From Azolla caroliniana (Eukaryota > Plantae > Polypodiophyta), in the NCBI GenBank assembly GCA_043228905.1, contig JBHGNT010000007.1, forward strand, positions 5,890,001 to 5,954,000: 64,000 nucleotides of DNA, in the 5' to 3' direction. Under the pieces are notes generated by a model. It saw nothing but the letters and a program-made list of their open reading frames with translations. It did no database searches and was not told the origin of the DNA. Of the stretch, positions 12,901 to 59,124 are shown piece after piece. The translations under genes and the position numbers were made by a program. Every line of letters begins with the position of its first letter. The stretch's first letter is position 1.

Positions 12901-13799
12901 TCCCCCCCTTTCCCATTTCAAATTCCATAGCCCTGCAGGCTGCAACCAAACAAGAGCAGGGTATATTGAATTCAAAGACTGAAATGGCAATACGAGCTGA
13001 GAAAACGTCATGGCAGCATCCCTAGGAGACCGTAGCACTGGACAAACCTCGAATTGATGCAGAAAATGGAAGTAAATTTCATTCAATTTGCCCCTAGGAT
13101 CGACAAGTTCATGATTTGGATATTGGAACCCTATGTGAAATCTATGCTTGAAGCCAATGACAGGACCAGGCGCAAAAGGATGCGATATCTTCAATGATCA
13201 ATGCTGCCATACATTGGACCTTGTTAGTATATTCTTTTCTCTCAGGAAATTCGTTATATTTCATTTCTTGTTGTGCTTGAAAATTTTCTAGAATTTGGTG
13301 TGCAAAGGGGATTGCAAATGATGGGTTTTGTGCATTCTAGGTTTGAGCATCAATCTTCAGATGGAGTAACTTGAACCGGTTTGAAGAGAGATCTTCTCAA
13401 TTGATCTGAATCTTTCATGGCATACTCTTTTTCCTCACTAGGTTAGGTCATGACTCATGAATGCACCTTTGGCTGGTAATGATCTCATATATATCTATAA
13501 TCTTTCTCCCACACGTTTGTAACTTTTCAAAAGATGTTGTATATTCATGAGCATTCCTGATTATTTTCATGTGTTGCTTAAGCCTACAAGAATTCTGCAT
13601 CATCATCATATGGCAGCTGGCACGTTGTCAATATCACGGGGCTTATGCCACAGTGGAACCAGAAAACCATTCGTCCATCTGTATGTATAGACATCTTGGC
13701 ATATAAAATGATTGAGCTTGAAATTTAGGTTCTGAAGTTTACTTTTCTTCAAAAACAATATCCTTGTTCACTTACAGGTCTTACTATCAAATAACCAAG

Positions 13800-16202
13800 A
13801 TGAGCTTTTCAATGTCTAGGCACTGTGCCAATGATGTCTCATCAATGTTTAGTACATCATTCCCTGTAAGGGAGACACAAGCATTGTTGTCAGAGTGTTA
13901 CATCGATGATTCTGTAGTGAAGAGTTTATGTGTAAATGGAGAATTGAAGGAGGCTGTGTTGGCCTTAGATGAGATGGAGCATCTCGGTGTTAGAGTGAGT
14001 GTAGAAACTTATCTCATCCTTTTACAACTGTGTCTCAATCTTCAGAGCCTTACTTGTGCTCGCCAAGTCCATGCTTATATAGTCAAGAATGGATTACTGC
14101 CCAACACTACCCTGGAAAATCTCCTGGTGGAAATTTATGCCAGATGTGAGAATATGGATGAAGCATGCTATGTGTTTCATGCCATAGTGGAACGCGATAT
14201 TGTATCATGGAATGTAATCATTGGGGGGTTTGCTCAACAAAGGAATTCGGAAAAGGTTTTCATTTATTTTTCAAGGATGATGCTGGAAACACAGCTCACG
14301 CCGAACACATTCACCTTTTTAAATGTTCTAAAGTTATGTGCAATTTCTCAAAACATGACCAATGGCACAATTGTCCACTCCTACATTGTAGAAACTGGGG
14401 AGGAGGAAGATTCAGATGAATATGTGGCGAATGGCCTTATTGATATGTATGTCCAATGTGGTAGCATGAGAGATGCACACAAAGTTTTCTGCACAATGTG
14501 TGAAAGGAAAAGGAATCTTGTATCATGGAACATGCTAATCTGTGGGTATGCAAAGGGTGGATGCAATGCACCTGCATTGGAACTGTTCTGGACTATGGTA
14601 GAGGAAGGAAGGAGGCCAAATCGGATAACTTTCTTAGGTGCCCTTAAAGCATGTGCTGGGTTAGGTTGCTTAGACAGTGGTAAGAAAGTGCATGAATTCC
14701 TTGCGAGATATGGACTTGAACTGACTTTGTATCTGAGCAGTGCACTTATTGATATGTATGCAAAGTGTGGAAATTCAGAGCTGGGACGCCTACTTTTTGA
14801 CAAACTTCCCGAACGCAATGTTGTGGTGTGGACGTCTATGATTTCAGGCTATCTACAGCAAGGAGAACATGAAGAAGCACTGAAGCTTTTTGGACAGATG
14901 GGAAGAGAGGGTGTGTGCCCTAACCAAGTCACGTTCATTGTGGCTCTAAAAGCTTGCTGCTCTGCTTCAGCCATAGGGTATGGCAAAAGAATACATTCAC
15001 TTCTTGCAAAAATGGAAGCACAATCAGATGTAGTTTTACAGGGCTGCCTTGTGGACATGTACACAAAATGTGGCAGCCTGGATAATGCAATGTGTGTGAG
15101 TGATGAAATGCCAATGCAAGATAGCGTGTTATGGAATGGGATGGTTGCGGGTTATCTTGCATACGAGCATCCTAAAGATGCATTAGTTCTTTTCACTAAG
15201 ATGGAGCAAAGAGGTGTACAAATTGATGAAGTTACCTTTGTATCTGTTCTCAAAGCATGTGCCTATTTGAACAAACTGGAATTTGGCAAGGAGGTCCATT
15301 TAAAGATTATCGAATCTAATGTTAATCAAAATAAGTTCTTGAACAACATGCTAGTCGATATGTACCACAAATGTGGGCAAAGGAAGGAGGCCTCTAAGGT
15401 GTTCAATGAACTTGTAGAAAGAGATGTCGTCGCATGGAATATCATTATGTGTGGACATGTGGCTGACGGAGATATGGAAGCCATGCTGATACGGCATACT
15501 GAGATGATGCATGCATCTGTATTGCCTGATGGAGTTACGTTTCTCAGCATGCTTCAAGCATGTGCTAGCTTGGGTGCGTTAGATCTTGGTAAGAGGTATC
15601 ACTCTTGTGTGCAAGAATTTGGTTACGTCATTGAACCTGCCACGAGTCTCTCAAACACATTGATCGATATGTATGCAAAGTGTGGTAGCATAGAAAAGGC
15701 GTCTTCAATATTCTTTAGCATGCCGATTCGTACATCTGTGTCGTGGAATGTGATGACCGCTGGATATGCACAACATGGGTATGCAAAGGAAGCCATTGAA
15801 TTATTCGAAGAAATGCAACTGAAAGTTGGCATGACACTTGACCATGTCACACTAGTAGCTGTGATATGTGCATGTAATTTTGCAGGTCTTGTGGATGCTG
15901 CTTACTACTACTTTGCACTCATAACACAGGTTTACAATATCGAGCCAACAGAGGAGGCCATTGCGTCCATGGTCGACCTACTGGGACGGGCAGGGCTATT
16001 GGCAGAGGCAGCTCTGTTTATGGAGGAGACAAGATCAAAAAGTTATGTGGTTGTATGGAAGGCCATGCTAGGGGCAAGCAGAATTCATAATGACGTGACT
16101 CTAGGAAAACATGCCGCTCAATCGGTTTTAGAATTGGACCCACAAGATACTGCTGCTTTTGTTCTCTTATCCAATATTTGTGTTGAATCCATTTCTTTTT
16201 GA
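13800..16202 (+). CDS. PLS-class pentatricopeptide repeat (PPR) protein with truncated E domain; probable organellar RNA-editing specificity factor
   Basis: Repeated P-L-S motifs (LIDMYAKCG, VSWNxMI, PNxVTFLxxLKAC) and an E-domain start (MVDLLGRAG...VVWKAMLGASRIH...LELDPQDTAAFVLLSNI). No DYW domain. First ATG is at 13800; an acceptor-like TTACAG at 13772-13777 suggests upstream exon(s). Confidence 0.93.
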   Translation: MSFSMSRHCANDVSSMFSTSFPVRETQALLSECYIDDSVVKSLCVNGELKEAVLALDEMEHLGVRVSVETYLILLQLCLNLQSLTCARQVHAYIVKNGLLPNTTLENLLVEIYARCENMDEACYVFHAIVERDIVSWNVIIGGFAQQRNSEKVFIYFSRMMLETQLTPNTFTFLNVLKLCAISQNMTNGTIVHSYIVETGEEEDSDEYVANGLIDMYVQCGSMRDAHKVFCTMCERKRNLVSWNMLICGYAKGGCNAPALELFWTMVEEGRRPNRITFLGALKACAGLGCLDSGKKVHEFLARYGLELTLYLSSALIDMYAKCGNSELGRLLFDKLPERNVVVWTSMISGYLQQGEHEEALKLFGQMGREGVCPNQVTFIVALKACCSASAIGYGKRIHSLLAKMEAQSDVVLQGCLVDMYTKCGSLDNAMCVSDEMPMQDSVLWNGMVAGYLAYEHPKDALVLFTKMEQRGVQIDEVTFVSVLKACAYLNKLEFGKEVHLKIIESNVNQNKFLNNMLVDMYHKCGQRKEASKVFNELVERDVVAWNIIMCGHVADGDMEAMLIRHTEMMHASVLPDGVTFLSMLQACASLGALDLGKRYHSCVQEFGYVIEPATSLSNTLIDMYAKCGSIEKASSIFFSMPIRTSVSWNVMTAGYAQHGYAKEAIELFEEMQLKVGMTLDHVTLVAVICACNFAGLVDAAYYYFALITQVYNIEPTEEAIASMVDLLGRAGLLAEAALFMEETRSKSYVVVWKAMLGASRIHNDVTLGKHAAQSVLELDPQDTAAFVLLSNICVESISF

Positions 16203-25836: not shown

Positions 25837-26232
25837 TAACAATTGGCAACGGTTCGGTTTGAACTGAACCGTGAAACAACGGCTGAACGGTTTAAACAGT
25901 TCGGTTCAGGTTTGGGATTTTTTAACGGTTCAATTTCAAAAGTTGGAAATGGTTTAACGGTTTTTTATTGTTTTAAAACAATCTTTTGATTTTCATGCCT
26001 TATTTTCACATTTTAGGATTAATGAAATATTTTAAATTTGACCTAAGCTGAAAAACCGAAACCGAACCACGAAACCGCGGTTTTATCGGTTTAATGCTTA
26101 ACGGTTTGATTTTTTTTTTAATGGTTTGGTTTAACGGTTTCGTGGTATGGTTCGATTTGGTTCAAGTTTATAATTTTATAAATGGTTCGGTTTTGACCCT
26201 CTCGAACCGAACCAAACTGTTGCCGATTGTTA
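25837..26232. mobile_element. hAT-like MITE (~396 bp)
   Basis: TIRs TAACAATTGGCAAC...GTTGCCGATTGTTA, subterminal AACCG repeats, and 8-bp flanks TGCCTATG / TGCCTCTG (7/8 identical TSD). Confidence 0.85.
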
Positions 26233-33816: not shown

Positions 33817-36479
33817 GCAGCTGCACCCGTGTACTCTGCTGCCTCTTTGCGTGACTATGAGTTGCTTTTTGTTGCTCTAAGATATGGTTCCGTTGCCTAG
33901 GGAGAAGACAAACCCTGATGTTGATCGCTTGTCAGCTTTGTAGCCAACCCAGTCGCATCGATGTATCCTTTGGGTCAAATCGGTGTGGCCGATTTGTAGA
34001 GAATACCCATCATAGATCTTTTAAATTAGTGACTTCAGCAATGTTTTCTGGTTCATAAACAATTACCACCATCATAAAGGCATAGTCGTAATGCCATCTA
34101 GTCGTTATAGCCAAATCGACTAACTAGATTCTTCTCACAAGTGGAGTGTCCGATTTTTTCATTTGTTGTGGCAATGGCTTTCTGTACACCAAGTGTCCCC
34201 ATAATAGGCACATCAAAGCCATCAAGCTCAGTGTCGAGTGAGTGAGTTGATTCATTGTCGTCAGATTTCTTGTCGTCATATTACATCATTTTTTCCTTTC
34301 CTTTGTTTGAATTCGAACTTGGCCGTGACATGCTTTTCTCGCTTGAAGGCTCATGTGGTCCGCTCAATCTGGTTGAGATCGGACCTTAGCCGATCATTGT
34401 CCTCGGTGTCGTCAAGGTCGACTGGAAATGGTTCGAGTGGAGTTGGCTTTGGTTTGTACCAAGATGTTGATTCGTCAAAGACTACGTCCCGACTGACGCG
34501 AACCTTCTGAGTTGAGGGGTTAAGCATTTGTACCCTTTTTTCTCTAGTGTGCATCCTATGAGGATACATTTCTCCGACTTGGGATCTAGCTTTTTCCACT
34601 TTTCATCGAGAATGTGCACGTATGCAATAGAGCCGAATATCCTTATATGGGATAGATCCGACTTCTTTCCATAGTACTTCTCGTGTGGGGTGACCTCGTG
34701 CACATTGGATATTGTACATCTGTTCCTTTGGTAGATGGTTGGGCATGTTGCTTCGGCCCAATATGACTTCAACATGTGCTTCTCGTTCATCATGGCCCTT
34801 GCTACTTCGAGGATGTGCCAATTTTTGCATTCGGCCACTCTGTTTTCTCGCCAAATTCCTTCTTTACGAGGATGGACTATAAATTCATCCGAGAAGTACT
34901 CCTTTCCTCTGTCTGAATGAAGGCATCGAACATGTCGACTGGTTGCCTTTTCGACTTCGTTTTTAAATTTATGGAAGTGCGACAAGACTTCATTGTTTTG
35001 CCACTTAGGATAAATCTAGGTGTGGCTAGGGAAATCGTCGATGAATGTGATGTAGTATCACCATCCACTGAATCTGGCCATTTGAGCCAGTTCCCACACA
35101 TCTAAATGTATTACATCTAGGATCCCTTGGCGTACGTTCCTCTCTTTCGGGAACGGTTGTGGATGTTGCTTGCCGAATTGGCAAGCGTCACACACTCTTG
35201 CAATCTCCTTCTCATCAAAGGTCAGGAGTCTCATGACAACTCCTTTCGAATGCATTCCTTTAAGCTTCTGAAGATTGATGTGACCAATTCTTTTGTGCCA
35301 CAATTCAATGTTGGCGTCAGCTTTATGGACTTTTGCGAACATGGCAGATTTTATCTCATTTGACTTGAGGATAAACATTCGGCCTTCCCTTCGAACACGA
35401 GCGATAATTAGGCCTTCCTTTTCAATAAAGTAGCTTCCGTGATTGAATTGGACTTGCATGCCTTGCTCCACGATTTGGTTGACTGAGACCAGTTCGTTAT
35501 AGTTGGAACATGCAAGACGTTCTTCATGTACGTTTGTTCACCATCTTTTCCGAATGGGACATTGCCGACATACTGGATGGGGTGGATTGTGTCATCCCCT
35601 ACTTCCACATTGCTGGATCGCTCAGGCTCTCCCAAGTCTCAAAACCATTCTTGGTGAGATGTCATATGGTTCAAGGTGCCTGAGTCGACAAACCATACAT
35701 CTTCTGTGTTGGACGTACTTGGACGTACTTGTCGGGCTGGAAGCCATCATAGAATTCACTCTATGCCGCATCACTAACATTCCGCTAGGATCGTCGTAGT
35801 CAGAGTTTGAGGCAAAGGTGGTAACTCACTTTTCTTCTTCTGACACTCTGCCTCATGGTGGCCGAATTTGCCACAGTATCCCCATTGGACAGAGTTGTTT
35901 TGTCGGCTTCTTTTGTTCGACACGTCTTGCTGGTAGTAGAAGTTGTGCTCATGGGATTGCCCTTGGTTGTGTCGGCCTTGGACGAATCGGCCTCTTCTTT
36001 CACGACCGTGTCCCCTCCCTCCATCCGAGTTCGAATAGAGCATGTGTCCTTCTTGTACATTGCCCCTCGTTCAGACATGATTTTCTTCGACCAGTATTAT
36101 CGACTGGAGGTCGAAGGAGGAGGGTGGATTCTCCCTTACGAGGACGGCCACCTTATGGCACCGAACCAAGGTGCTAGGCCACTGAGGCATATTTGCACCA
36201 TTTCGTCATCGTCAAGGTTGACATTAATCGACCTGAGGGAGTGACACAACTCCTTGATCTCCAAGGTGTAGCTACTGATTGACATATCCCTTTGTTGGAT
36301 ATTGTTCAATTCTTGACGAGGTTGAAGTTTTCGTGCGGTTGTGTTGGCCATGAATATCTTTTTGAGGTTCCCCCACGGCTCCTTCGTGATGGAAACTGAG
36401 GCCGTCAATGTGAAAACATCAACAACACCTTTAGATGAAGATCACCAAGTTCACAAGAGAAAGCAAGATCAAAGAATAG

Positions 36480-36510
<31 letters not shown>

Positions 36511-38770
36511 CCAAGAGGCACACAATGTAACAATTCTTATTCCGTGGTTACAAAAATGGAGGCAACAACTCTCTAACAATAGCAACAACTTTTTGAGCGA
36601 GGTTACAAAGCTCGTTATATATTAACTGGGCTAGGGAAACTGCCCTTTGTCATATTTACACAAATGTCCTAAACCTAGAATATCCAAGGGACGGTGTGAA
36701 TATGACCATTATATGCCCATTATTCAAAGGGATCGGAATCGATCTACCAAAAACACTTGGTCATCCCATCTGTGACATTATTGGCTGTAGATATCTTCTC
36801 GAGGCCGATTTTCCTTGGAATGACACAATCCCGAACAAAGTGATATCAAACGTCGATATGGTTGAAGGCATTGTGATGAACCGGAGTTTTTGATAGAGCA
36901 ACAACACCCTCACTGTCGATGTAGACAAATGGAGCCGAGTCGGAGTTGACTTGTCGAAACGTGTGTGCCAGCTGACCGAGCTATAAAGCCTCTTTCGCCG
37001 CATCGGACACGGCTAGATATTCGGCCTTGGTTGTTGATGTGGGAGTGCACTCCTGAAGTTTCGATTTCCACGAGATTGCTACATTGCCAAATTTGAAGCA
37101 ATATCCAGTTGTTGACTTTTGACTGTCCACAAAGCTGGCAAAGTCAGAGTTGGTATAATCGACTATGCCTCATGCATTATCTGGGCCGAATAGGATGCCA
37201 TAGTCTTTTGTGCCCACGAGGTATCTGAACACATGCTTAACTGTGTTCCAATGCGGTTGACCGGGATTGTGCATAAATTGTCTGACGACTTTGATAATGT
37301 GAGCAATATCATGTTGTGTCGCGACCATCACGTACATCAAGGAGCCGATTGCCGGTGCATACGGTACCGACTTCATAACTTCCCCTTTCGACCAAATGTC
37401 AGGCAGTCTAAGCGAAGATTAATCAGGAACGGGGTCAAAGTAGATTTGGCCAATTGCATGTTAAAGCATTCTAAGACATGTTCAATATAGTCGGATTCAA
37501 ACAACTGTCTTTGAGTTCGATTTAGACTTATCTTCATCTCGAGAATGTGTTTTTCCGGACCACGGTCCTTCATGGCAAACTTCAACGGCAGTTGCTGAAC
37601 AAGTTCGGTGAGATCTCTGGCATGTCGTCCGGAGAGTAGCATGTCGTCCACGTAGATGATGAGGAAGATGGGAGACCCATCTCGAGCTATTTTCGTGAAG
37701 AGGCAATGGTCCTCATCACTCTTAGAGAAGCCAACCGACTGGATAAAGTCGTCGAACTTCTTGTACCACTGCCATGGTGCCTGCTTGAGGCCATAGAGAC
37801 TCTTCATGAGTTGACACACTAGATGTTCTTGGCCTGCTACAACGAAGACTTTCAGTTGTTCCATTTAGATTTCCTCTTCTAGGTTGCCATGGAGGAATGT
37901 TGTCTTCGCATCTAACTATATAAGCTCCAAATCTTCAGTTGCCACGACGCCGAGCATGAAGCGAAGGGTTGTCATTTTCACCACTGGTTAAAAGATCTCG
38001 TCGAAGTCGATGCCATATTCGTATCGGAAACCCTTTGCTAAGAGTCTAGCCTTGAATTTTGGGGTGGTCGAATCATACGTCTCTTTTAATATGTAGATCC
38101 ACTTGCATTAGGTGTCGGAGTCAGATGATCTAAAGCTGAATCGTTTGGCTGTGTCGAGTCGGTGGTAGAGGATTCGACTACCCGTGAAGCCGATCTTGTG
38201 TTATGGGCTGACTTCGAAAAAAGTTGTCCTTCGGACTTCAATAGGCCTTTCGATCGTTTTATGCGTAACCAACTCATTGAATGCTACATCCGAACTTTGG
38301 ACAATCTGTTTGTGCTCGGGGTCCCAGAGTTGGTATCCGATCTCGTCGTCTGATCCATAGCCAAGGAAAATACATTTCTTGGACCATGGTTCTAATTTTC
38401 GGCGGTGGTCTTTCGGTATGAGGGCATACGCCTCGCATCCGAAAATCCTTAGCTTGTCATAATTCGGCTTCCTCCCGCTCCATAATTCCTGAGTGTCATG
38501 AAGACATACATCTTGGCTTATCATGACATTCATCTTGGCGAACCAGGAATCGAACCCATAACCTCTTGGTTTACATATTGTACTTTAACCATTGTAATAA
38601 CATATGTGAGATGTAATCATAATAATTATATGTTTAGTTATTACGAGATATTTAGAACGTTCTAGATTATTCTAGAATGTTCTTGAATATTTCATGATTA
38701 TATTTATTATTATTATTATTCATAAATATCTAAAATATTCTAGAACATTCTAGAATACTCCATAAGGGCC

Positions 38771-38778
38771 TATAAATA
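38771..38778 (+). promoter_or_regulatory. TATA box of the chromovirus 5' LTR
   Basis: TATAAATA lies 33 bp upstream of the 11-mer (38804) complementary to the PBS, consistent with a start site there. Confidence 0.75.
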
Positions 38779-39127
38779 AGAGTCCATACACTCATCACAA
38801 CTCATTCGGTTCAACACCAGTCTTTAGCCCTTAGCCTACTCCTTGTAATCTTCTTTCTCATAATATAATCGCATTCCCATTTCTTATCTCTCACTTATAC
38901 TTTTCTCTCTCTCGCACTCTCTCCCTCTTTCACTCTCTTTCTATCACTATCGCTATCTCTACCGCTCTCGCCATCTCTATCGTTATCGTTATCTCTATCG
39001 CCATCGCTCTCTCTCTCTGCTTCCAACTCAAGAGTCACGACAGTTTGAACCGAATATTTCTTTTCCCTTTCTCCAATAACTCTAGCAAGCTTTCTTCTTT
39101 ATCCTTCTTTCTTTTTCCCCCGCGGTT

Positions 39128-40255
39128 ATGGAGTCGGTCAGCAAGCAAGAGTATATGCGTGTCCTTTCGGAGCTCGATATGCTCACCACTAAGTTTGTGG
39201 CATTAGAGCAAGAAAATCAAAGGCTACTCGGGGATCTTCAACAAGTCAGTACTGAGAAAGCTCATCAATATGAGGAGTTATCACAACGGGTTCATCAACT
39301 TGAGGCTACTATATTAACATTACGAGAACAAGCGGCGGGGGTTCAAAACTCCCCAAGGGAACCAAAGATTAGCCTCCCTGCCAAGTTTGATGGTACCAGA
39401 TCTCTCTTTCGAGGTTTCCTGAATCAAGTTCGTTTGGTGATTCAGTTACATCCCAATCGGTATCCAACTGATGCTGCCCGTGTGGGATTAATAGGAACCT
39501 TGCTAAGCGGTACAACGTTAGCATGGTTTGCACCACTTCTTGAGAAGAAATCACCATTACTGGAGGATTTCGAGGCATTCGTTAAGGAGTTTCAAGCTAG
39601 TTTTGGAGATATGGATAGCACTAGGACTGCAATAAACAAGATTCGAAGACTCCGACAAGGAGATCGTCCCGCTTCAGCTTATGCCGCAGATTTCCGTCTC
39701 TTGGCATGCGACATCCCTTGGGATGAGGCAGCCTTAATGGATCAATTCCGTCAGGGTTTGCGTAACGATGTCAAAGATCTTCTTCTTACTTTCCATGAAG
39801 ATCCAAAGTCTCTTACTGAAGTTATTAGCCGAGCTGTGCGATGTGATAATCGCCTATTTGAGCGACGTTCTGAACGTCAACAAATGTTACGCCGCCAACC
39901 GGAACAGACATACGCTTCTATAGTCGCCACACCGCCACAAGGTTCTAGACCTGTTACGAGGGATGGTCCCACTCCGATGGAAATAGAGTCGACACAACGT
40001 CGAGGGCCCTTATCAGATGCTGAGAAACAACGACGTCGGGCGCATCGCCTATGCCTCTACTGTGGTGGTCCAGGACATATAGCTGTGAATTGTCCACATA
40101 AACCCAGGCGTCAAGTTTACCAAGTAAGTGCACATGACAACCCTACATCAAGTTCTACTATCACTTCTAATAACTTAAGTACTAAGCCTACTAGCCCATG
40201 CCATGAGAATAGATTTGATGTCTTGAGCCAATTAGAGGATGTGTTAAACGAATAA
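39128..40255 (+). CDS. gag: Gag (375 aa; coiled coil, capsid, CCHC knuckle)
   Basis: PAKFDG...FLNQ, LRQG...YAADFR, GPTPMEI and CLYCGGPGHIAVNC; uninterrupted ORF. Confidence 0.95.
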   Translation: MESVSKQEYMRVLSELDMLTTKFVALEQENQRLLGDLQQVSTEKAHQYEELSQRVHQLEATILTLREQAAGVQNSPREPKISLPAKFDGTRSLFRGFLNQVRLVIQLHPNRYPTDAARVGLIGTLLSGTTLAWFAPLLEKKSPLLEDFEAFVKEFQASFGDMDSTRTAINKIRRLRQGDRPASAYAADFRLLACDIPWDEAALMDQFRQGLRNDVKDLLLTFHEDPKSLTEVISRAVRCDNRLFERRSERQQMLRRQPEQTYASIVATPPQGSRPVTRDGPTPMEIESTQRRGPLSDAEKQRRRAHRLCLYCGGPGHIAVNCPHKPRRQVYQVSAHDNPTSSSTITSNNLSTKPTSPCHENRFDVLSQLEDVLNE

Positions 40256-43200
40256 GTCCGGCCAAAATAGGAGCCATTTGGTTGGACCATCCTAGTTATG
40301 TAGAGTCAGTACCTAGTTGTGGTTCCATTTCATCAAATCAAGTTAGTAGAGTTTTTTCTGCACAAGTCGAGCTTAGCACATCTACAGGTCATCGCGCCCT
40401 AGCCTCTGCCCTCCTAGATTCCGGAGCCAATTCTTGTTTCATGGATCGCGAGTTTGCATTGACTCAAAACATCATCTTGAAAAAACTCCCAAACCCAGTA
40501 GCTGTAGGAGTCATCGATGGTCGCCCTATAGCATCAGGAGATATAGTCGAAGAGTCTGAACCAATTCGTGTAGTCCTAGGTAATTTGGCTAGTGTCATCT
40601 CATTTAACATCATTAGTAGTCCGGAGCACTCTCTAGTTCTTGGTCTTCCTTGGTTTGAGTTACATAACCCAACCATTGATTGGAGAAAAATTGAAGAGGT
40701 CACCGTACAATCCAAGTCTCTTGAAGCTCCAACTAAGGATCTAGGATCCCCCACAATTTCAACAATCTCTATACATCAATTACGAGAGGATGGAAGAAAG
40801 GAAGACATGATGGTATTTGCGGTTTTAGCAACTCCCTCATCTAGCTCACAAGAATTGGGGGTCCAACTACCAAAGAAGCACATAGAATTCTCCGATGTGT
40901 TCGATAAGGTGAAGGCTAATAGACTACCAGAGCATCGACCATATGATTGCCCAATTGATTTGCAGCCAGGAAAAGAGCCTCCATGGGGACCAATTTATAA
41001 TCTTTCGCCCACGGAGTTAGAGGTTCTTCGAGAATATATCAATGAGAACTTGGCAAATGGTTTTATCCAACATTCAAAATCTCCTGCTGGTGCACCCATC
41101 TTTTTCGTTAAGAAGAAAGATGGTACGCTTCGTATGGTCGTGGATTATCGAGGCTTGAATAAAGTGACCGTTAGAAACCGATATGCTCTCCCATTGATCT
41201 CAAGCCTTCTAGAACGCCTCAGTGAAGCAAAGTATTTCATGAAGTTAGATCTTCGAGGTGCCTACAACCTTGTTCGAATTCGTCCTGGGGATGAATGGAA
41301 GACGGCGTTCCGCACTCGCTATGGTCATTTTGAGTACACAGTGATGCCTTTTGGCCTCACGAATGCACCAGCAGTCTTCCAACATATGGCGAATGATATT
41401 TTTCGAGACTTCCTCGATATCTTCATCATTGTTTACCTGGATGATATCTTGATCTACTCAAAAACTCAAGAAGAACATGATATACATGTTCGCCAAGTTT
41501 TGCAACGGCTACGAGAGTATGGTCTCTATGCAAAATTGGAGAAGTGTAGTTTCGACCAACGTCAAGTGGAGTTTTTGGGGTACATAGTCTCTTCAAATGG
41601 CATCTCTATGGATCCATCAAAGGTTCAAACAATTTTGGATTGGCAAACACCACAGTCCGTGCGAGATGTGCAATGTTTTTTGGGGTTCGCAAACTTTTAT
41701 CGCAAGTTCATCAAAGACTATTCAAAAATTGTGTTGCCCCTCACTCAACTGACGCACAAGAATCGATCATTTGTATGGAGTATAGATGCGAACTCTGCAT
41801 TTGAGGGTTTAAAGCAAGCATTTACATCCGCACCAATCTTAATCCATGTCGATCCAATGAGGCGCTTTATACTTGAAGCTGATGCATCGGATTTCGCACT
41901 CGGAAGTGTACTATCCCAAATTGGTGATGATGGTGAACTGCACCCGGTGGCTTTTCACTCACGAAAATTTGAAGCCGCAGAAATCAATTATGAGATTCAC
42001 GACAAAGAGCTTCTTGCCATTGTGGATTCTTTTCAACAATGGCGTCATTTTCTGGAGGGTTCTTCTCAGCAGATTATTGTCTACAATGATCATAAAAATC
42101 TAACATACTTTCAAAGTGCTCGAGTCTTGAATCGACGACAAGCTCGTTGGGTGCAGTTCTTAACTCGTTTCGATTTTGTAATTCTATATCGCCCTGGGAT
42201 GCAACAAGGAAAAGCAGATGCTTTATCTAGACGTTCGTATATGGAACTTCAACCTGGAGAGGCCGCATTTGAAAGCCAAAAGCAAATCCTCTTAGGTCCT
42301 GATCGTCTACGAATAATGGCAATGCATACCATCAACACACCGGGAGATTCAAGGCTTCTTGATTCCATTCGTGAGCAGATTGCGACTGATGCGTTCGCCC
42401 AAGAGGTTTTGAGCCATATTATCCCAAATCGTGCATCTAGCTCCCAAACTCAAAATCCTCGTCTAGACTACACCCAGTTTAGTTGGCATGATGGGTTACT
42501 TTTTCGACAAACTCTCTTGTATGTGCCTGACGGTCCTTCTCGACTCAAAGTCATGCAACAATGTCATGACACACCAATGGCGGGACACTTCGGCATCCAC
42601 AAGACTTTTGAGTTGATTTCTCGCCGATATTGGTGGCCACGGCTTCGCCATTTTGTTACGGATTATGTTCGTAGCTGTGATACATGTTGCCGATCAAAAA
42701 AACCTCGACATCATCCATATGGCTTATTACAGCCAATGCCTATTCCGGAGAGCCCATGGAAATCTATTTCCTTGGACTTTATTACGGATCTTCCACCTTC
42801 CAAGGGATTTGATTCGATTCTCACTGTTGTCGATCGTTTTACGAAGATGGCACATTTCCTTCCATGCACAAAGACCATTACTAGTCAAGAGACAGCTGAT
42901 TTACTCATGCGGGAGGTGTTTCGCCATCATGGTCTTCCGGATGATATTATCAGTGATCGGGGTCCCCAATTCATCTCGAAATTTTGGCGGCACATGTTCA
43001 GACTCTTACATACTTCTTGTAAACTCTCTTCCGGCTACCATCCAGAGACTAATGGGCAGAGTGAGCGCACCAACCAAACAGTCGAGCAATATCTACGTTG
43101 TTTTGTCAACTATCAACAAGATGATTGGGTGGATTTACTACCTTTGGCAGAATTTGCTTATAACAACTCCGAGCATTCTTCTACTGGATATTCCCCATTT

Positions 43201-43881
43201 TTTGCAAACATTGGGTACCATCCTCGTTGGACGATGCTTGAACATCCTGAACTCCCAAAAAACCCAACTGCTGAAGATCGGCTCACTCGACTCCAAGAAG
43301 TTCAGGATATGCTTTTGCATCATTTATGTGAAGCCCAAAACACTCAAAAGAAGATTGCTGACCGTCATCGGCGTGATTCATCGACTACATTTCAAGTAGG
43401 CGATCGTGTATGGCTCTTACAAGGTAGCATTAAAACGACCCGACCTTGCTACAAATTGGATTATCAACGTTTTGGCCCATATGTCATAAGTGGTAAGATC
43501 AATGATGTGACATTTCGTCTTGATCTTCCTCCTCATATGCGTCTTCACCCGGTCTTCCATGTTTCACTTTTGGAGCCTTACACAACGAGCTCTATTCCGG
43601 GTCGTGTTACACCTCCCCCACCTCCAATTGACGTTTCCAATGGCTCTGAATATGAGGTTGCCGCTATCCTCGACTCCAAGATCATTCGCAACAAACTATA
43701 CTACTTGGTTGATTGGTTAGGCTATACACCTAATGATCGAACATGGGAGCCTGCCGAACATCTTGCCAATGCCTCCGACATGGTTGTTGCATTTCACAAC
43801 CAATATCCTCATAAACCAAGTCTGAACTCTTTTCTTCCGACTCGTGCAACTCGTCATCGAAAAGGGGGGATAATGTCATGA
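40219..43881 (+). CDS. pol: Pol (PR-RT-RNase H-integrase-chromodomain) in the -1 frame relative to gag
   Basis: LLDSGA, MPFGLTNAPA, YLDDILIY, DASDFALG, the HHCC motif and SDRGPQF, GPY, and chromodomain EYEVAAILDS...YLVDWLGY...TWEP. The frame is open from 40219 and overlaps the end of gag; its stop lies inside the 3' LTR. Confidence 0.96.
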   Translation, partial: CLEPIRGCVKRISPAKIGAIWLDHPSYVESVPSCGSISSNQVSRVFSAQVELSTSTGHRALASALLDSGANSCFMDREFALTQNIILKKLPNPVAVGVIDGRPIASGDIVEESEPIRVVLGNLASVISFNIISSPEHSLVLGLPWFELHNPTIDWRKIEEVTVQSKSLEAPTKDLGSPTISTISIHQLREDGRKEDMMVFAVLATPSSSSQELGVQLPKKHIEFSDVFDKVKANRLPEHRPYDCPIDLQPGKEPPWGPIYNLSPTELEVLREYINENLANGFIQHSKSPAGAPIFFVKKKDGTLRMVVDYRGLNKVTVRNRYALPLISSLLERLSEAKYFMKLDLRGAYNLVRIRPGDEWKTAFRTRYGHFEYTVMPFGLTNAPAVFQHMANDIFRDFLDIFIIVYLDDILIYSKTQEEHDIHVRQVLQRLREYGLYAKLEKCSFDQRQVEFLGYIVSSNGISMDPSKVQTILDWQTPQSVRDVQCFLGFANFYRKFIKDYSKIVLPLTQLTHKNRSFVWSIDANSAFEGLKQAFTSAPILIHVDPMRRFILEADASDFALGSVLSQIGDDGELHPVAFHSRKFEAAEINYEIHDKELLAIVDSFQQWRHFLEGSSQQIIVYNDHKNLTYFQSARVLNRRQARWVQFLTRFDFVILYRPGMQQGKADALSRRSYMELQPGEAAFESQKQILLGPDRLRIMAMHTINTPGDSRLLDSIREQIATDAFAQEVLSHIIPNRASSSQTQNPRLDYTQFSWHDGLLFRQTLLYVPDGPSRLKVMQQCHDTPMAGHFGIHKTFELISRRYWWPRLRHFVTDYVRSCDTCCRSKKPRHHPYGLLQPMPIPESPWKSISLDFITDLPPSKGFDSILTVVDRFTKMAHFLPCTKTITSQETADLLMREVFRHHGLPDDIISDRGPQFISKFWRHMFRLLHTSCKLSSGYHPETNGQSERTNQTVEQYLRCFVNYQQDDWVDLLPLAEFAYNNSEHSSTGYSPFFANIGYHPRWTMLEHPELPKNPTAEDRLTRLQEVQDMLLHHLCEAQNTQKKIADRHRRDSSTTFQVGDRVWLLQGSIKTTRPCYKLDYQRFGPYVISGKINDVTFRLDLPPHMRLHPVFHVSLLEPYTTSSIPGRVTPPPPPIDVSNGSEYEVAAILDSKIIRNKLYYLVDWLGYTPNDRTWEPAEHLANASDMVVAFHNQYPHKPSLNSFLPTRATRHRKGGIMS

Positions 43882-45135
43882 AGACATACATCTTGGCTTA
43901 TCATGACATTCATCTTGGCGAACCAGGAATCGAACCCATAACCTCTTGGTTTACATATTGTACTTTAACCATTGTAATAACATATGTGAGATGTAATCAT
44001 AATAATTATATGTTTAGTTATTACGAGATATTTAGAACATTCTAGATTATTCTAGAATGTTCTTGAATATTTCATGATTATATTTATTATTATTATTATT
44101 CATAAATATCTAAAATATTCTAGAACATTCTAGAATACTCCATAAGGGCCTATAAATAAGAGTCCATACACTCATCACAACTCATTCGGTTCAACACCAG
44201 TCTTTAGCCCTTAGCCTACTCCTTGTAATCTTCTTTCTCATAATATAATCGCATTCCCATTTCTTATCTCTCACTTATACTTTTCTCTCTCTCGCACTCT
44301 CTCCCTCTTTCACTCTCTTTCTATCACTATCGCTATCTCTACCGCTCTCGCCATCTCTATCGTTATCGTTATCTCTATCGCCATCGCTCTCTCTCTCTGC
44401 TTCCTACTCAAGAGTCACGACAGTTATTCATAAATATAATCATGAAATATTCAAGAACATTCTAGAATAATCTAGAATGTTCTAAATATCTCGTAATAAC
44501 TAAACATATAATTATTATGATTACATCTCACATATGTTATTACAATGGTTAAAGTACAATATGTAAACCAAGAGGTTATGGGTTCGATTCCTGGTTCGCC
44601 AAGATGAATGTCATGATAAGCCAAGATGTATGTCTTCATGACACTGAGGTACTTGAAGTCCTGGAGGCCTACTCGGTGACATGTTAATTATGTATACTGC
44701 CGTAAGTAAGGCCTCTACCCAAAAGCCATCTGATAGTGCGGAGTGGTAGAGCATGGATAATATCCGTTCTCGAATTGTCCGATTCATCCGCTTGATAATT
44801 CCGTTCTACTCCGGACTATAGGGTGTCATATATTCATGACGATTGCCACATTGTCGGCAAAATTTGTTGAATTCTTCAAACTTAAACTCTCCCCCGTTGT
44901 CAGTGCGAAGGCATTTCAGCTTTCGACCAGATTGGTTCTCTACCATGGAAAGCCATTCTTGGAAGATCGAGAATACTTTATCTTTGGTTCTTGCTAGGTA
45001 AGCCCACACTTTCCTGGTCGAGTCGTCAATGAAACTGACGAAGTAGGAGGTGCCACCAAGGGACTGATGTGGCATCGGGCCACCGACGTTCGAATGGACT
45101 AAATCAAGGGAACTTTAATCTCATGGTGATGCCAT

Positions 45136-45954
45136 TGTCGTAAAAGGATATGACCAGCTGGTGCGACCGCGATTCCATAGTTGCCTCAACTACAACCACG
45201 TATCTCGACTTGGTTTGATGACCCAACACTCCTTGGAGATCCACTTGATTTGACTCATTGGAGTTTATTTACATTCTAGACTCAAGCTTCTTTAGTATTA
45301 TTGTTATTAGGGATTTATATGCATTATTTTATCGAAACAAATTGTATAGTCGAGACTCGAAACCATGTAATGTATTGCATGTGCACCATATAATGCAGAT
45401 GCAAAGCTTCTCTACATGTGTGCCACATGGGCCACATGTTTTTTTCATAACGCACATGCACAAACTTCTCTAGGGGGTGCCACATGGCCCACATGTAAAT
45501 CCATCCATTTAGTATAAGAGGGGAGGATTATTGTCATGATGGGGGGGGGGGGGGGGGGGGGGCAATCAAAGAGACATATTTTGTAAAGGGTTTTTTCTTC
45601 TCGAGGAAATAGAGATTTTCTATTTGAATTCTTTCTTCTACCGTGCTTGAGGGGTAGTTGTGTATGGTGTTTTATTCATGACACTCAATTATGGCGTCCG
45701 TTTTCGACATTCTATAGCTTGTTGGAAAGCTCTTTCTAAGGGCTTTCCAATCTGTGTCTGCACACTTAATTTTGTTACATCAGTGGAATGATACAAGGAT
45801 GTTCGTGTTCACGGGTAAGGTTGCAAGCTACTTGTGGCTATTGGGATACTTTCAGCTCGACTTCCTACTCTTCTCTTCCTTCTTCTTATTTTCACTCTCC
45901 TGGTTCAAAACCCTAGTGGTTCCGCCTGGACACGCCAATTTCTTTGACATGACA
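45136..45954. mobile_element. Probable solo LTR (819 bp) inserted in integrase of Copia B
   Basis: TGTCGT...ATGACA termini with 4-bp flanks CCAT/CCGT. It separates the integrase zinc finger (CEH..YGKQ) from LDLVHS. It contains a TATA-like motif and a long G run. Confidence 0.65.
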
Positions 45955-48794
45955 CCGTCACTGGTGTGAGGTTGCGACTTGTTTGCCATAGTACTGAGAA
46001 TGCTCACAGAACTGGTGATCCGAAAGGAGAGTGTGGGGATGTATTTGGCTCTAGATAAATGCATTATGCTGGCCTTGCTAAGGTGTCCAAGTCATCCATG
46101 CCATAATGATGACACATGAATATCAACCATGAACAAGTCACCCTCTTTGAGTGTGACATATAACGGGTACAATGAATGTATGTTTGATCCTCTAGAAAGC
46201 AAGAGGTTCCCTCTGTAGAGTGTCCACCCTCCTGATGAGAAGCCAGCACGGATGTCGTCTTCATCAAGTTGTCTGATTGAGATCAATGGTCTTGAGAGCT
46301 CAGGAACGTGTAAGACATTGTGTAGTACTAATGTAGAACCACCTGGGACGTTGAGTTCTACACTGCTGATTCCTATAATAACGCAGTGATGCGAGTTTCC
46401 GACTCGTACTGAGTCGGAGTGTTCGGGCCGAATATTGCCGAAACTGAGATCTATGAGGGGTCACGTGGTAGGATGCACCCGAATCCAAGAGTCATGTGCT
46501 CGATTCCTCACTTGTAAGTAAAACTTCTTATTCGACTAGGTTTTCAATGGATAGTATGTTCGGGTCTTTCGACAATACTTCAGTAGTGGAACCCACGTAA
46601 TTGACCTCCTCATGCCGGCCACTCTTCTAATCAGCTCGATGAGCTTTATCGTTCTTAGCTTTGAGTGCACGGCAATCGGTTTTGATGTGCCCAAGTTTCT
46701 TGCAATAGTTGCAGATTCGATTATCCCAGGACTTGCTCCAATTTCGGTGATTGTTCGTATGTCGAGAAGAACTTCTTCCTCGATTGTTTGGCCGGTTGGC
46801 CGAACCTTGTGCTACATATGCTTCATCTGTCGAATCTTTTGCAAACGATTTCCTCCGAGCTACTTCAGTCAATATTGCGCTCGAAACTTCGGAGTACTTC
46901 ACAGCGGCAATAGAAGCATTGCACACGCTTGTGACAAAAGTTTCCCATGATGGGGGCAGACTACTACATGAGCAACATTGCTTTCAGTTCATCTTTGATT
47001 GTTACCCCTGAGCCGAAATCTGGGAGCCTAAACTTTCATACTCGTTCCGGTGTGCCTGAACCGAGTCGGATTCTTTCATCCGCAGGTTGTAGACGCGCCG
47101 AATCAAATATATCTTTGTGGCGACAACCTTTTCTCATACATGTCCGACATTGTTTTCCACAGTTGAAACGCAGTCGAACACGATTGCATTGTGAAGTACA
47201 CTGACAGCGAAAGGTGCATCCGAATGGTGGATTAGACAATTTTATTGAGTTTCGTCCACTCATTTGGCTTGATTCCTTCTAGAGGGTTTTCATTCTCGAT
47301 TGGATCTATTTGACCCTTGACTATCAGATAGTCTTGCATCTGCTCCTTCCAGAAATTGAAGTTCGATCCGTCGAACTTCCTTAGACTCATCTTTGATGAG
47401 CCGGATGTCGATGCCATCTGTGTTGGCTTGTTAGACTCTGTTCGGAGTTGACTACAAATGGTGGTGGAATGCAACCAATTGGCTCACCTGATATTGTTCT
47501 AGTCGGATTCGAACACAAGTCGAGCCGGCTTCCCGAGTTGGATCTGTCGATTTGATTTCAATGCCAATTTCGAGATGTCGATCACAGGTTTTGTGTTGAT
47601 TATACAGGCCAATCCTGCTTCGGGTGACTACAACGATGAGAGGGACGAAGCTGACTGGTCCTCCCGAATGTCGTTCAACCGAATGAAGTACGGAGTGGGG
47701 TTGTTCCCTAGGGCTAGATCTGCTTTGAGAGGTTACAACAAATGAGTAGATAGTGTCTAATCTAGTAAAGCACGATCGAGGCTGATTGAACAGAGATTCC
47801 ACTCTGAGCGGCTGCAATCACAGAAGCAAGATGTTGCCGATTGGCTTACCTTAAGAGTGATTTAGCTTAGTAGAGTGCAAATCATCTTTTTTCTTTCTCT
47901 TCTCAAGATGAGATCTTGGACTCAGGTTCTTCAAGGGAGAGGAAGCAAGAATGTTGTTGAAGACTGATGACAGCTGGCAGCGAGTTGAAGAACCTTCGCT
48001 TTAATACCAGATGTTGGAAATTGAGGCCGTTAGTGCGGAAACATCAACAACAACTTTAGATGAAAATCACCAAGTTCACAAGAGAAAGCAAGATCAAAGA
48101 ACAGAATGAGAGAGAGAAACACCAAGAGGCACACAATGTAACAGTTCTTATGAATCAGTGGTTACAACAATGGAGGCAACAACTCTCTAACAATAGTAGC
48201 AACTTTTTGAGCTAGGTTACAAAGCCCGTTATATACTAACTGGACTTGAGTAACTGCCCTTTGACATATTTACACAAATGTCCTAAACCTAGATTGTCCA
48301 AGGGACGGTGTGAATACGGCCATTATATGCCCATATTCGACACTTCGGCGTTTTGACCTCTCGGATGTAGCCGAGCATGTGATCGTGAACACATGATGTA
48401 AGGCAATACAACACATGACTTGACGCTTGCTCCGATGTTGGGTGGTCGGCGTGTGTTGGGTTGGGTTGCGTTTTTTGTGCTCCCTTGATATAACTCCAAT
48501 GGCCTTGACCGACAAGGTATTGGTGCATCTTGTACTCCCAAGATGCGAAGTTGTTTCTATCCAGCTTTTCGTTGGGGAGAGAGTTGCCCATCTTAGTGTT
48601 CATGATGGTCGACTTGTGATTTTTTCTTCTCTGTGATACGAACTATGCAAGGTTGCTGCTACAGTGATCAGTCAGTTCTTCATGAACATCAGCATAGGCA
48701 CAACTCACGCGGATGGGCCTAGATCAACCTACTAATCGCTCTGATACCACGTAAAGAATTGGATGTGATTTTGTGGAGCGGAAAATGTGTGTAT

Positions 48795-57504: not shown

Positions 57505-58419
57505 CTATAAGACCGATTTAAGATGAGTCTTGACGTTCAGCAATTCATAGTCAGTTATTAGGATCTCCTTGAACCTCACATTGTCATCCATAACATCACT
57601 ACATACTTCAAACAAGTGTGTCAATAACATCGTCTGGCTAGAGAGTCTCTCACATACTTGCAATAGATTCGCTGCTTCGGATCGCGTCAACATTGAGATC
57701 CTCGCCGCAATCTGTTTGAATCGGCATTGAAGCTCTTCGTATGCCCTTCCGACCACAATCATCACGAGCTTCAGGCTCTCCTTCACTAAAAGATGATCTA
57801 CAAATGAGTCCATGGCCATCGATGCTTCCTGAAGGAACTCGTGGAGGCACATAAATTGCGTGACGAAATTCGCTGTGGGCAATGCCACGATGTGGTCGGA
57901 TTCGCAATCCGACCTAACAGTATCACAGTTGAAGAAAAGCCCTAACATTCTTGAGGTTTGGATCCATTTCTCCACAAAGCCGGCGTACCAACGGACCCAA
58001 CCCGATGCCGACCAAGAAAGAGCGGAATCCCTGTCTTTGAAATTCGACATATTCAGGCAATTCCGGCCGCTACTGAGCTCTCTATGGAAGCTGATCTGAT
58101 CTTGGAACATGAAGCCTCCTTCACATAGGCATCTATGGATGAGGATGAGGCATTTTAGGGCGACGACCCAGCTATGTGTCTTGCTCAGCCTTCCCATAAT
58201 CATCTGCACGCAGCGGGAAACGCGCACTCGGGATTGCGACCCGATGCCGACGATGATTTGAGCGACCGCCGCTTCATCGGGGAGCATTTCTTGGTCATGA
58301 TTGGTTGCGCGAAGCACAGGGACAAGGGCAAGGCTTACCTGATTGTGTTGTGATTTGGCGATGGCAGAGGACCATTGATCTTGCACGCGATTCACGTGCC
58401 GCTTGATCCAGCGTGCCAT
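57505..58419 (-). CDS. ANTH/ENTH-domain putative clathrin assembly protein (short, intronless PICALM-like type)
   Basis: VLRATNHD...P, RLSKTHSWVVALKCLILIHR, GRNCLNMSNFKD and SGWVRWYA; 304-aa uninterrupted ORF. Confidence 0.9.
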   Translation of the reverse strand: MARWIKRHVNRVQDQWSSAIAKSQHNQVSLALVPVLRATNHDQEMLPDEAAVAQIIVGIGSQSRVRVSRCVQMIMGRLSKTHSWVVALKCLILIHRCLCEGGFMFQDQISFHRELSSGRNCLNMSNFKDRDSALSWSASGWVRWYAGFVEKWIQTSRMLGLFFNCDTVRSDCESDHIVALPTANFVTQFMCLHEFLQEASMAMDSFVDHLLVKESLKLVMIVVGRAYEELQCRFKQIAARISMLTRSEAANLLQVCERLSSQTMLLTHLFEVCSDVMDDNVRFKEILITDYELLNVKTHLKSVL

Positions 58420-58707
58420 GATGTTTGGGGTCTGCTAGACACTCAGGACTCCGTCTGTCTGTCTGTCTGTCTGTCTGTCTTGTCTGAGTCTCTTCTCGGA
58501 TGGGCAGCTATGGCGGCTAGAAATTTGTTTCTCATTGCTTCTCAGGTCAAATCTGCCCCTACCCCATACATACATACATACATACATACATACCCCATCC
58601 CATGTATGTATGTATGGGCCATGGCTTTACACTCACATACATACATATACTTGCTCTCCTATAATATACAATATGTACCTATTGTCAACACTCTGCTCTC
58701 CAACTGC

Positions 58708-59124
58708 TAACAATCAGCAACGGTTCGGTTCGGTTCGAGAGGGTCAAAACCGAACCGCTTTGGAACCGAACTGTTTTACATTTTTTCAAAACATGAGCCG
58801 AACCGAACCGAACCACAAAACCGTTTAAACCGAACTACTAAAACCTTTTTTTCAAACCGTTAAAACCGCGGTTTCGTGGTTTGGTTTCGGTTTTCAACTT
58901 CGATCAATTTTTAAAATTTCAAATATTTCATTATTTTTAAATTTTTAAAATTTTAAAGATGCTTCTAAAATGTGAGAATAAGGTCTAAATATAAAAAGAT
59001 TGTTTAAAAACACTTTTTTTAAAATAAAAAAATAAAAAACCGTTTTAAACCGCGGTTTCGGACAATTGAAACCGAACCGAACCGTTTAAACCATTAAGCC
59101 GTGGTTTCGCGGTGCCGATTGTTA
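58708..59124. mobile_element. hAT-like MITE, same family as 25837-26232, in opposite orientation
   Basis: TAACAATCAGCA...TGCCGATTGTTA termini. Its left end GGTTCGAGAGGGTCAAAACCGAACC is the reverse complement of the right end of the 25.8-kb copy. TSD unclear. Confidence 0.8.

What the first reader, a model, noticed from the sequence alone, without database searches (positions are those of the whole stretch)
43874..44648. Chromovirus integrated with U3 ends on both sides: a perfect 214-bp inverted LTR copy lies inside the TSD
Seen: after the normal 3' LTR end (...CACGACA, 44422) comes GTTATTC, then an exact reverse complement of LTR nt 1-214 (44430-44643), and only then the TSD CTGAG. The host frame is restored only if the whole LTR-gag-pol-LTR-inverted-U3 unit is removed, so this was a single insertion ending TGTCA...TGACA. 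The inverted piece carries the 3'-LTR allele (A at 44039, not G at 38659). The junction retains the GT that follows the LTR end before the PBS, and TTATTCATAAATAT matches an AT-rich fold-back inside the LTR. Inference: an unprocessed U5 end was joined or template-switched to an inverted U3 and integrase used two U3 att sites. This is either a rare aberrant product or a family-specific end structure. Read-through transcription would give a 214-bp perfect hairpin, a possible siRNA source against the family.
Basis: partly seen in the sequence, partly recalled or inferred. Interest (0 to 1): 0.85.

Follow-up and report, generated by a model that had tools for sequence, protein, structure and literature searches.

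The report
Retrotransposon misfire with two U3 ends
One young copy of a common plant jumping gene carries an extra, mirror-image piece of its left end on its right side, inside a single target-site duplication; it is likely a one-off copying accident that the element's integrase pasted in, not a trait of the family.

Summary
The structure is exactly as described. An intact self-priming chromovirus (38494-44422) is followed by GTTATTC, a perfect inverted copy of LTR nt 1-214 and the 5-bp TSD. The decayed Copia gene it interrupts stays in register across the TSD (50 of 53 usable homologues). A short-read contig of a public run crosses the inverted-U3/host junction; no listed contig crosses the inner junction, so that one rests on the assembly. 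The extension is not a family end: in four studies nt 214 runs on as normal LTR and U5 ends run into the PBS or plain flanks, and it lies outside the element's predicted RNA. The inner junction falls in the loop of a U3 hairpin, as expected if a snapped-back, hairpin-capped U3 fragment was opened and end-joined to an unprocessed U5 end, integrase using two U3 ends. The '3'-LTR allele' is simply the family-major base and tells little. Hairpin siRNA is untested. The scan noted similar U3/U3 misfires in four other genomes and a related hybrid in this genome (unchecked notes). Verdict: real, rare aberrant product; modest interest.

The parts
38489..38493 (.). Left target-site duplication CTGAG
38494..39042 (+). 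5' LTR, 549 nt, TG...CA; carries the minority base at both positions where the LTRs differ (nt 166, 532)
38804..38814 (+). Predicted self-primer (LTR nt 311-321), 33 nt after TATAAA at nt 278; predicted transcript start
   Evidence: pairing probability 0.79-1.0 with the PBS
39043..39055 (+). GT dinucleotide plus 11-nt PBS complementary to LTR nt 311-321
39086..40255 (+). gag ORF, stop to stop (Retrotrans_gag, Ty3_capsid, zinc knuckle), uninterrupted
40219..43881 (+). pol ORF, stop to stop (RT, RNase H, integrase, SH3, chromodomain with Y/W/Y cage residues), uninterrupted, -1 frame relative to gag
43859..43870 (+). Polypurine tract
   Evidence: sequence
43874..44422 (+). 3' LTR, 549 nt
44080..44109 (+). 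Apex of the U3 palindrome: 8-bp stem (LTR nt 207-214 with 229-236), 14-nt loop (215-228); likely fold-back point
44423..44429 (+). Inner junction GTTATTC: GT(T) as after the 5' LTR, overlapping by TT with loop nt 223-228 in plus sense
   Evidence: not bridged by any listed contig
44430..44643 (-). Inverted copy of U3 nt 1-214, exact, ending TGACA on the + strand (second U3 att end); lacks the TATA box
44644..44648 (.). Right target-site duplication CTGAG
   Evidence: crossed by a 175-nt contig of run X1
36387..48338 (-). Host: decayed Ty1/copia element (LTRs 36387-36725 and 48012-48338, 86.6% identical), interrupted between integrase core and SH3

Best explanation
This is one insertion of a self-priming Ty3/gypsy chromovirus that ends in U3 on both sides within one 5-bp duplication, likely made by integrase from an aberrant cDNA in a one-off accident. 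Most likely path (inferred): a plus-strand strong-stop DNA ended at U3 nt 229-236, snapped back on the 8-bp stem at the apex of the U3 palindrome and was extended to its own 5' end, giving a hairpin-capped duplex with a perfect U3 att end. Integrase joined this end and the left U3 end of a full-length cDNA to one target site. Before or just after that step, host repair opened the hairpin in its loop (nt 222/223) and joined it through a TT microhomology to the full-length cDNA's U5 end, which still carried its unprocessed GT. The element's own predicted RNA is normal, so daughters would have normal ends.
For: Shown: exact inverted nt 1-214 ending TGACA directly before the TSD. Host Copia protein in register across the 5 bp in 50 of 53 usable homologues of 150; host LTRs collinear, 5,797 nt without the insert. 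The outer junction is present in run X1 as a 175-nt contig at depth 15.3, similar to other low-depth X1 pieces over the host flank (7-24), though with only 29 nt on the LTR side. The inner junction lies within the 14-nt loop, 6 nt from the strand switch: required by hairpin opening, about a 2.5% coincidence (14 of 549) for an unrelated break. The G at 44423 is not in the loop but matches the base after the 5' LTR. The U3 region folds strongly as ssDNA (z -5.9, 0 of 200 shuffles). Not family-wide: an X1 contig of depth 4358 runs unbroken through nt 214/215; nt 214 continues normally at depth 9250, 3720 and 340 in X3, X4, X6, while variants of depth 27-118 were kept in X1; 3 of 3 metagenome U5 ends (2 distinct flanks) have plain flanks.
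Against: No listed contig in X1, X3, X4 or X6 bridges the inner junction (26 of 106 pieces shown, the longest kept), although X1 holds the outer one; contigs drop rare links, so this is unresolved rather than negative. The unprocessed-end claim rests on one informative base plus a 2-nt overlap. The apical stem is only 8 A-T pairs. The sequence cannot tell hairpin opening from two RT template switches. The flanks are near-palindromic (7 of 10 bases), which leaves room for a later template switch.
Confidence: 0.6

Rival explanations
1. Same integrase event with two U3 ends, but the aberrant cDNA was made wholly by reverse transcriptase: the plus-strand 3' end (...ACAGTT) jumped to U3 nt 223 on the minus strand, copied 12 nt, then switched at the 8-nt stem onto plus-strand strong-stop DNA and ran to its end.
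For: Gives the identical sequence. Template switching can make complex LTR insertions in plants (PMC1950507, abstract); Ty1 composite insertions were attributed to erroneous priming and strand switching (PMC2939329, Introduction); Tf1 RT has 2-nt clamp activity (PMC3035444, passages).
Against: Needs two switches 6-14 nt apart. The clamp was reported for HIV-1 RT to need a C or G in the dinucleotide, whereas the overlap here is TT, and Tf1 RT showed it mainly with Mn2+.
Confidence: 0.17
2. The interior is mis-assembled: the two U3/host junctions are real but the inner junction, or the length between them, is an assembly or library chimera (for example a collapsed inverted dimer).
Against: A read fold-back would run on into PPT/pol or the mirrored left flank (CTCAG...), not into CTGAG plus the collinear host. 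The seven junction bases occur in neither orientation of a normal copy at that place. The outer junction exists in short-read data.
Confidence: 0.1
3. A normal insertion was rearranged later: a replication or repair template switch copied inverted U3 from an LTR and returned to the right flank using the near-palindromic target.
For: The mirrored left flank and the right flank agree at 7 of their first 10 bases; the A allele is family-major, so any of many copies could have been the template; 0 differences in 214 nt does not date the arm (0.78 expected, P0 = 0.46).
Against: An integrated 3' LTR would have been followed by the TSD, not GT; both the LTR end and the TSD are intact to the base; the fold-back is still needed; palindromic targets are usual for LTR elements (PMC6911290, title and start of abstract in listing).
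Confidence: 0.08
4. A family-specific, programmed end structure.
For: The fold-back point is a palindrome present in the family's U3, so the accident could recur.
Against: Normal continuation dominates at both break points in four studies; 3 of 3 metagenome loci normal; the extension lies outside the predicted R-to-R transcript and cannot be inherited by retrotransposition (standard LTR replication model).
Confidence: 0.02

Closest known systems
Tf1/Sushi-group self-priming chromoviruses, plant Tcn1 clade (PMC6317226 and PMC2864245, passages; bioRxiv 10.1101/2022.12.06.519325, passages)
   Same: Chromodomain with aromatic cage residues, PBS complementary to the element's own LTR, separate gag and pol, TG...CA ends, 5-bp TSD, similar size to SM-Tcn1 (5.7 kb).
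   Different: This copy has a second, inverted U3 end inside the TSD. Clade membership was not tested with reference sequences.
Complex LTR insertions by template switching (Sabot and Schulman 2007, PMC1950507, abstract) and Ty1 composite integrants (PMC2939329, Introduction)
   Same: An abnormal cDNA inserted as one unit with one TSD.
   Different: Those in PMC1950507 are fusions of two parent elements sharing an LTR; here the extra piece is an inverted U3 fragment with a loop-opened junction.
Aberrant retroviral proviruses with one defective end (XMRV clone in PMC2857682, passages; RSV work of Oh et al. 2006, titles in that reference list only, papers not held)
   Same: A faulty or unprocessed viral end, apparently completed by host repair.
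   Different: The XMRV case had an abnormal 273-bp duplication; here both outer ends are clean att sites with a normal 5-bp TSD, implying concerted integration of two U3 ends.
Mu killer of maize (PMC3440606, start of abstract in listing)
   Same: A partial inverted duplication of a transposon that could give hairpin RNA on read-through.
   Different: Muk is a DNA-transposon derivative with a ~4-kb hairpin driven from a flanking gene and shown to silence; here the stem is 214 bp and neither transcription nor silencing is shown.
Palindromic cis-regions of Sirevirus LTRs (PMC4728375, abstract)
   Same: Palindrome-rich U3 that can form hairpins and varies between copies (table 5c).
   Different: Different superfamily. 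It suggests ordinary copies may already offer hairpin RNA, which lowers the added value of this locus.

Membership tests
Chromovirus (Ty3/gypsy) | RT-RNase H-integrase order with C-terminal chromodomain | tested here: met
   RVT_1, RT_RNaseH, Integrase_H2C2, rve, SH3_Tf2-1, Chromo
Tf1/Sushi group, Tcn1 clade | PBS complementary to the element's own 5' RNA end (self-priming) | tested here: met
   11-nt complement at LTR nt 311-321, pairing probability 0.79-1.0; a prediction, not an assay
Tf1/Sushi group, Tcn1 clade | Chromodomain with aromatic cage | tested here: met
   Y...WxxY present (cage positions recalled); feature of Tcn1 in PMC6317226
Tcn1 clade | Clusters with Tcn1 references in an RT-RH-INT tree | not tested
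   No reference Tcn1 sequence at hand; the closest hits (82-93%) are unnamed metagenome proteins, named hits are fungal, algal and vertebrate Ty3 proteins at about 41-65%
Integrase-made insertion | CA-3' at both outer ends and a clean 5-bp TSD with no host loss | tested here: met
Heritable inverted-LTR element (DIRS-like or TIR-like family) | Inverted ends present in most copies | tested here: not met
Inversion-type autointegration product | Processed CA end joined directly to an internal target (feature recalled) | tested here: not met
   An extra G separates CA from the LTR-derived bases, and a strand switch follows
Mu-killer-like hairpin silencer | Long perfect inverted duplication | tested here: met
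   214 bp, 342-nt spacer; folds at -387 kcal/mol against -100 for the LTR alone
Mu-killer-like hairpin silencer | Read-through transcript, siRNA and trans-silencing | not testable with these tools
   No RNA data for the locus were available
Helenus/TRIMp3 (tRNA-bearing LTR) | tRNA-derived box A and box B in the LTR of a non-autonomous TRIM | tested here: not met
   Element is autonomous; box B exact but antisense; box A departs from TRGCY..YGG (PMC10886601 section 3.5); no ARAGORN or Rfam tRNA hit

The most novel reading that the evidence does not exclude
Palindromic U3 regions regularly shed hairpin-capped plus-strand fragments that integrase pairs with full-length cDNA, so U3/U3-ended insertions with a loop-opened junction form a recurring in-vivo class, and some, perhaps this one, are transcribed through into perfect U3 dsRNA that silences the family in trans, an LTR counterpart of Mu killer.
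Probability: 0.12. Interest if true: 0.65.

Novelty: new variant of a known kind. Interest (0 to 1): 0.3.

Why it matters
As a single fossil it is a clean natural record that a plant retrotransposon integrase can likely use two U3 ends, possibly from two molecules, and that host repair can close the gap. It also warns annotators that the TSD may lie outside the LTR pair. It would matter more if such events prove recurrent across families, or if the 214-bp stem is transcribed and silences the family; neither is shown.

Tried and rejected
No whole genome was held, so copies could not be counted directly. No RNA holder was listed; this says nothing on expression. No listed contig covers the inner junction in X1, X3, X4, X6; contigs drop rare links, so it is not proof of absence. 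The U3-start pattern found 0 matches in genome contigs. The viral-contig scan gave 10 distant loci at 40-48% identity, not analysed further. ARAGORN found 0 tRNAs in the window; Rfam over 43800-44700 gave 16 matches, all far below gathering score, miRNA-like hairpins and one snoRNA. The 3'-LTR-allele argument was dropped because A is the family-major base. Read fold-back was rejected because the sequence runs into the true right flank. A loop-inverted family variant that would remove the need for a fold-back was not seen: no listed piece on the inverted side starts before 44430. Inversion-type autointegration was rejected on the extra G. Paper searches returned no listing that describes a plant LTR element with an inverted U3 fragment inside the TSD; these were word searches of an open-access library, read mostly as listings, and four papers on RSV and Tf1 ends were not held. 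No supplements were read. Earlier-findings look-ups by sequence and near place were empty.

Full report
Observation. The element has two 549-nt LTRs (38494-39042, 43874-44422) that differ at nt 166 and nt 532. After the 3' LTR come GTTATTC and an exact reverse complement of LTR nt 1-214 (44430-44643), then CTGAG, which also precedes the 5' LTR. The unit therefore reads TGTCA...TGACA between one 5-bp duplication.

The element. gag and pol are uninterrupted; pol carries RT, RNase H, integrase, SH3 and a chromodomain. The PBS follows a GT dinucleotide and is complementary to LTR nt 311-321, 33 nt after a TATAAA; the two pair with probability 0.79-1.0 in the predicted 5' leader. That is the self-priming design of the Tf1/Sushi group and of plant Tcn1 elements (PMC6317226, passages; bioRxiv 10.1101/2022.12.06.519325, passages). 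I did not place it in a tree with references. The closest proteins are unnamed metagenome sequences at 82-93%.

One insertion. The target is a decayed Ty1/copia element on the minus strand with LTRs at 36387-36725 and 48012-48338 (86.6% identical), integrase core on one side of the insert and SH3 and RT on the other. I aligned the two sides separately to 150 homologues; 53 covered both sides under my filters, and in 50 of them the TSD-encoded residue of both sides fell on the same position. So only 5 bp were duplicated and no host DNA was lost, which is an integrase footprint with a U3 end at each side.

Independent data. In run X1 a 175-nt contig (depth 15.3, 1 mismatch) covers 44615-44789 and so crosses the inverted-U3/TSD/host junction; it has 29 nt on the LTR side, under the tool's 31-nt rule for bridging but about the most a contig beside a high-copy repeat can have (32 of 2423 pieces shown). 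X1 may or may not be the source sample. None of the listed pieces of X2-X4 crosses this junction. The inner junction was not bridged in X1, X3, X4 or X6 (26 of 106 pieces and 19 of 21 loose ends shown). A single-copy link between two nodes thousands deep is the kind of path contig builders drop (inference), so the inner junction rests on the assembly.

Not a family trait. An X1 contig of depth 4358 runs unbroken over LTR nt 1-256, and nt 214 continues as normal LTR at depth 9250, 3720 and 340 in the other three runs, while X1 kept minor variants of depth 27-118 in the same region. U5 ends continue into the PBS or unrelated flanks. Three metagenome loci with this U5 end (two distinct flanks) also have plain flanks. 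By the standard LTR replication model, nothing beyond the 3' R region is copied into progeny, so the extension could only recur anew.

Mechanism. The junction bases 44424-44437 are plus-strand LTR nt 223-236. Nt 229-236 pair perfectly with nt 207-214 around a 14-nt loop, at the apex of a long imperfect U3 palindrome. The top strand thus reads: U5 end, GT, the 3' part of the loop, the right stem arm, then the complement of U3 back to nt 1. This is the sequence of a snapped-back plus-strand strong-stop DNA, extended to its own 5' end and opened in the loop. Stopping exactly at nt 1 points to a cDNA template rather than the integrated 3' LTR, which is continuous with pol. The G at 44423 is absent from the loop but is the base after the 5' LTR, as expected of a U5 end that integrase never trimmed; TT is shared by both partners. 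I infer concerted integration of two U3 ends and host end-joining of the inner ends, in either order (0.6). A purely RT-made product with two template switches gives the same letters (0.17), though the reported 2-nt clamp needs a C or G (PMC3035444, passages). Interior mis-assembly (0.1), later rearrangement helped by near-palindromic flanks (0.08) and a programmed end (0.02) remain.

Hairpin RNA. A read-through RNA over 43874-44643 would fold into the full 214-bp stem (-387 kcal/mol against -100 for the LTR alone). It would have to pass the element's own 3' end, or come from the old host Copia on the other strand. The inverted piece lacks the TATA box at nt 278. No RNA data bear on this. Ordinary copies already carry a U3 palindrome, and such regions are siRNA hotspots in maize Sireviruses (PMC4728375, abstract), so a special silencing role is possible but unlikely.

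Comparison and novelty. Abnormal cDNAs inserted as one unit are known in plants and yeast (PMC1950507, abstract; PMC2939329, Introduction), and faulty ends completed by repair in retroviruses (PMC2857682, passages). My ten word searches gave no listing of this exact architecture, but coverage was limited and key RSV and Tf1 papers were not held. The scan's own unchecked notes report U3/U3 or inverted-LTR misfires in four other genomes and a hybrid with facing LTRs in this genome; these are leads, not support. Verdict: a real, well-preserved aberrant insertion, a new variant of a known kind, interest 0.3.

Noticed in passing
window 38546-38556, 43926-43936 (minus) and 44581-44591 (plus): Exact tRNA-type box B in U3, antisense to the element, with a weak box A-like stretch and an anticodon-arm-like hairpin upstream; 0.05 matches expected per window, but all three are one origin; no ARAGORN or Rfam hit. 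Possibly a worn tRNA or SINE relic.
   Followed up: partly
window 44025-44140 (LTR nt ~152-267): Long imperfect palindrome in U3 (DNA fold z -5.9) that varies strongly between family copies, with small duplications and replaced segments in run contigs (tables 5, 5c).
   Followed up: partly
run X4, behind 44422: One family variant has AA instead of GT between the LTR end and the same PBS (loose ends).
   Followed up: no
run X4, joint 44137 to 44532: One low-depth contig (20.4) joins plus-strand LTR nt ~264 to inverted nt ~112 through 24 other letters: a possible second U3 fold-back or a diverged palindrome; only 21 nt on the short side.
   Followed up: no
window 4565-5646: Degenerate tandem array with a period of about 150 nt.
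   Followed up: no
window 13722-16202 and 57505-58434: PPR gene with E motif (+) and an ANTH-domain ORF (-).
   Followed up: no
window 26052-26232 and 58708-58894: Two copies, in opposite orientation, of a small repeat rich in AACCG/CGGTT units, perhaps a MITE.
   Followed up: no
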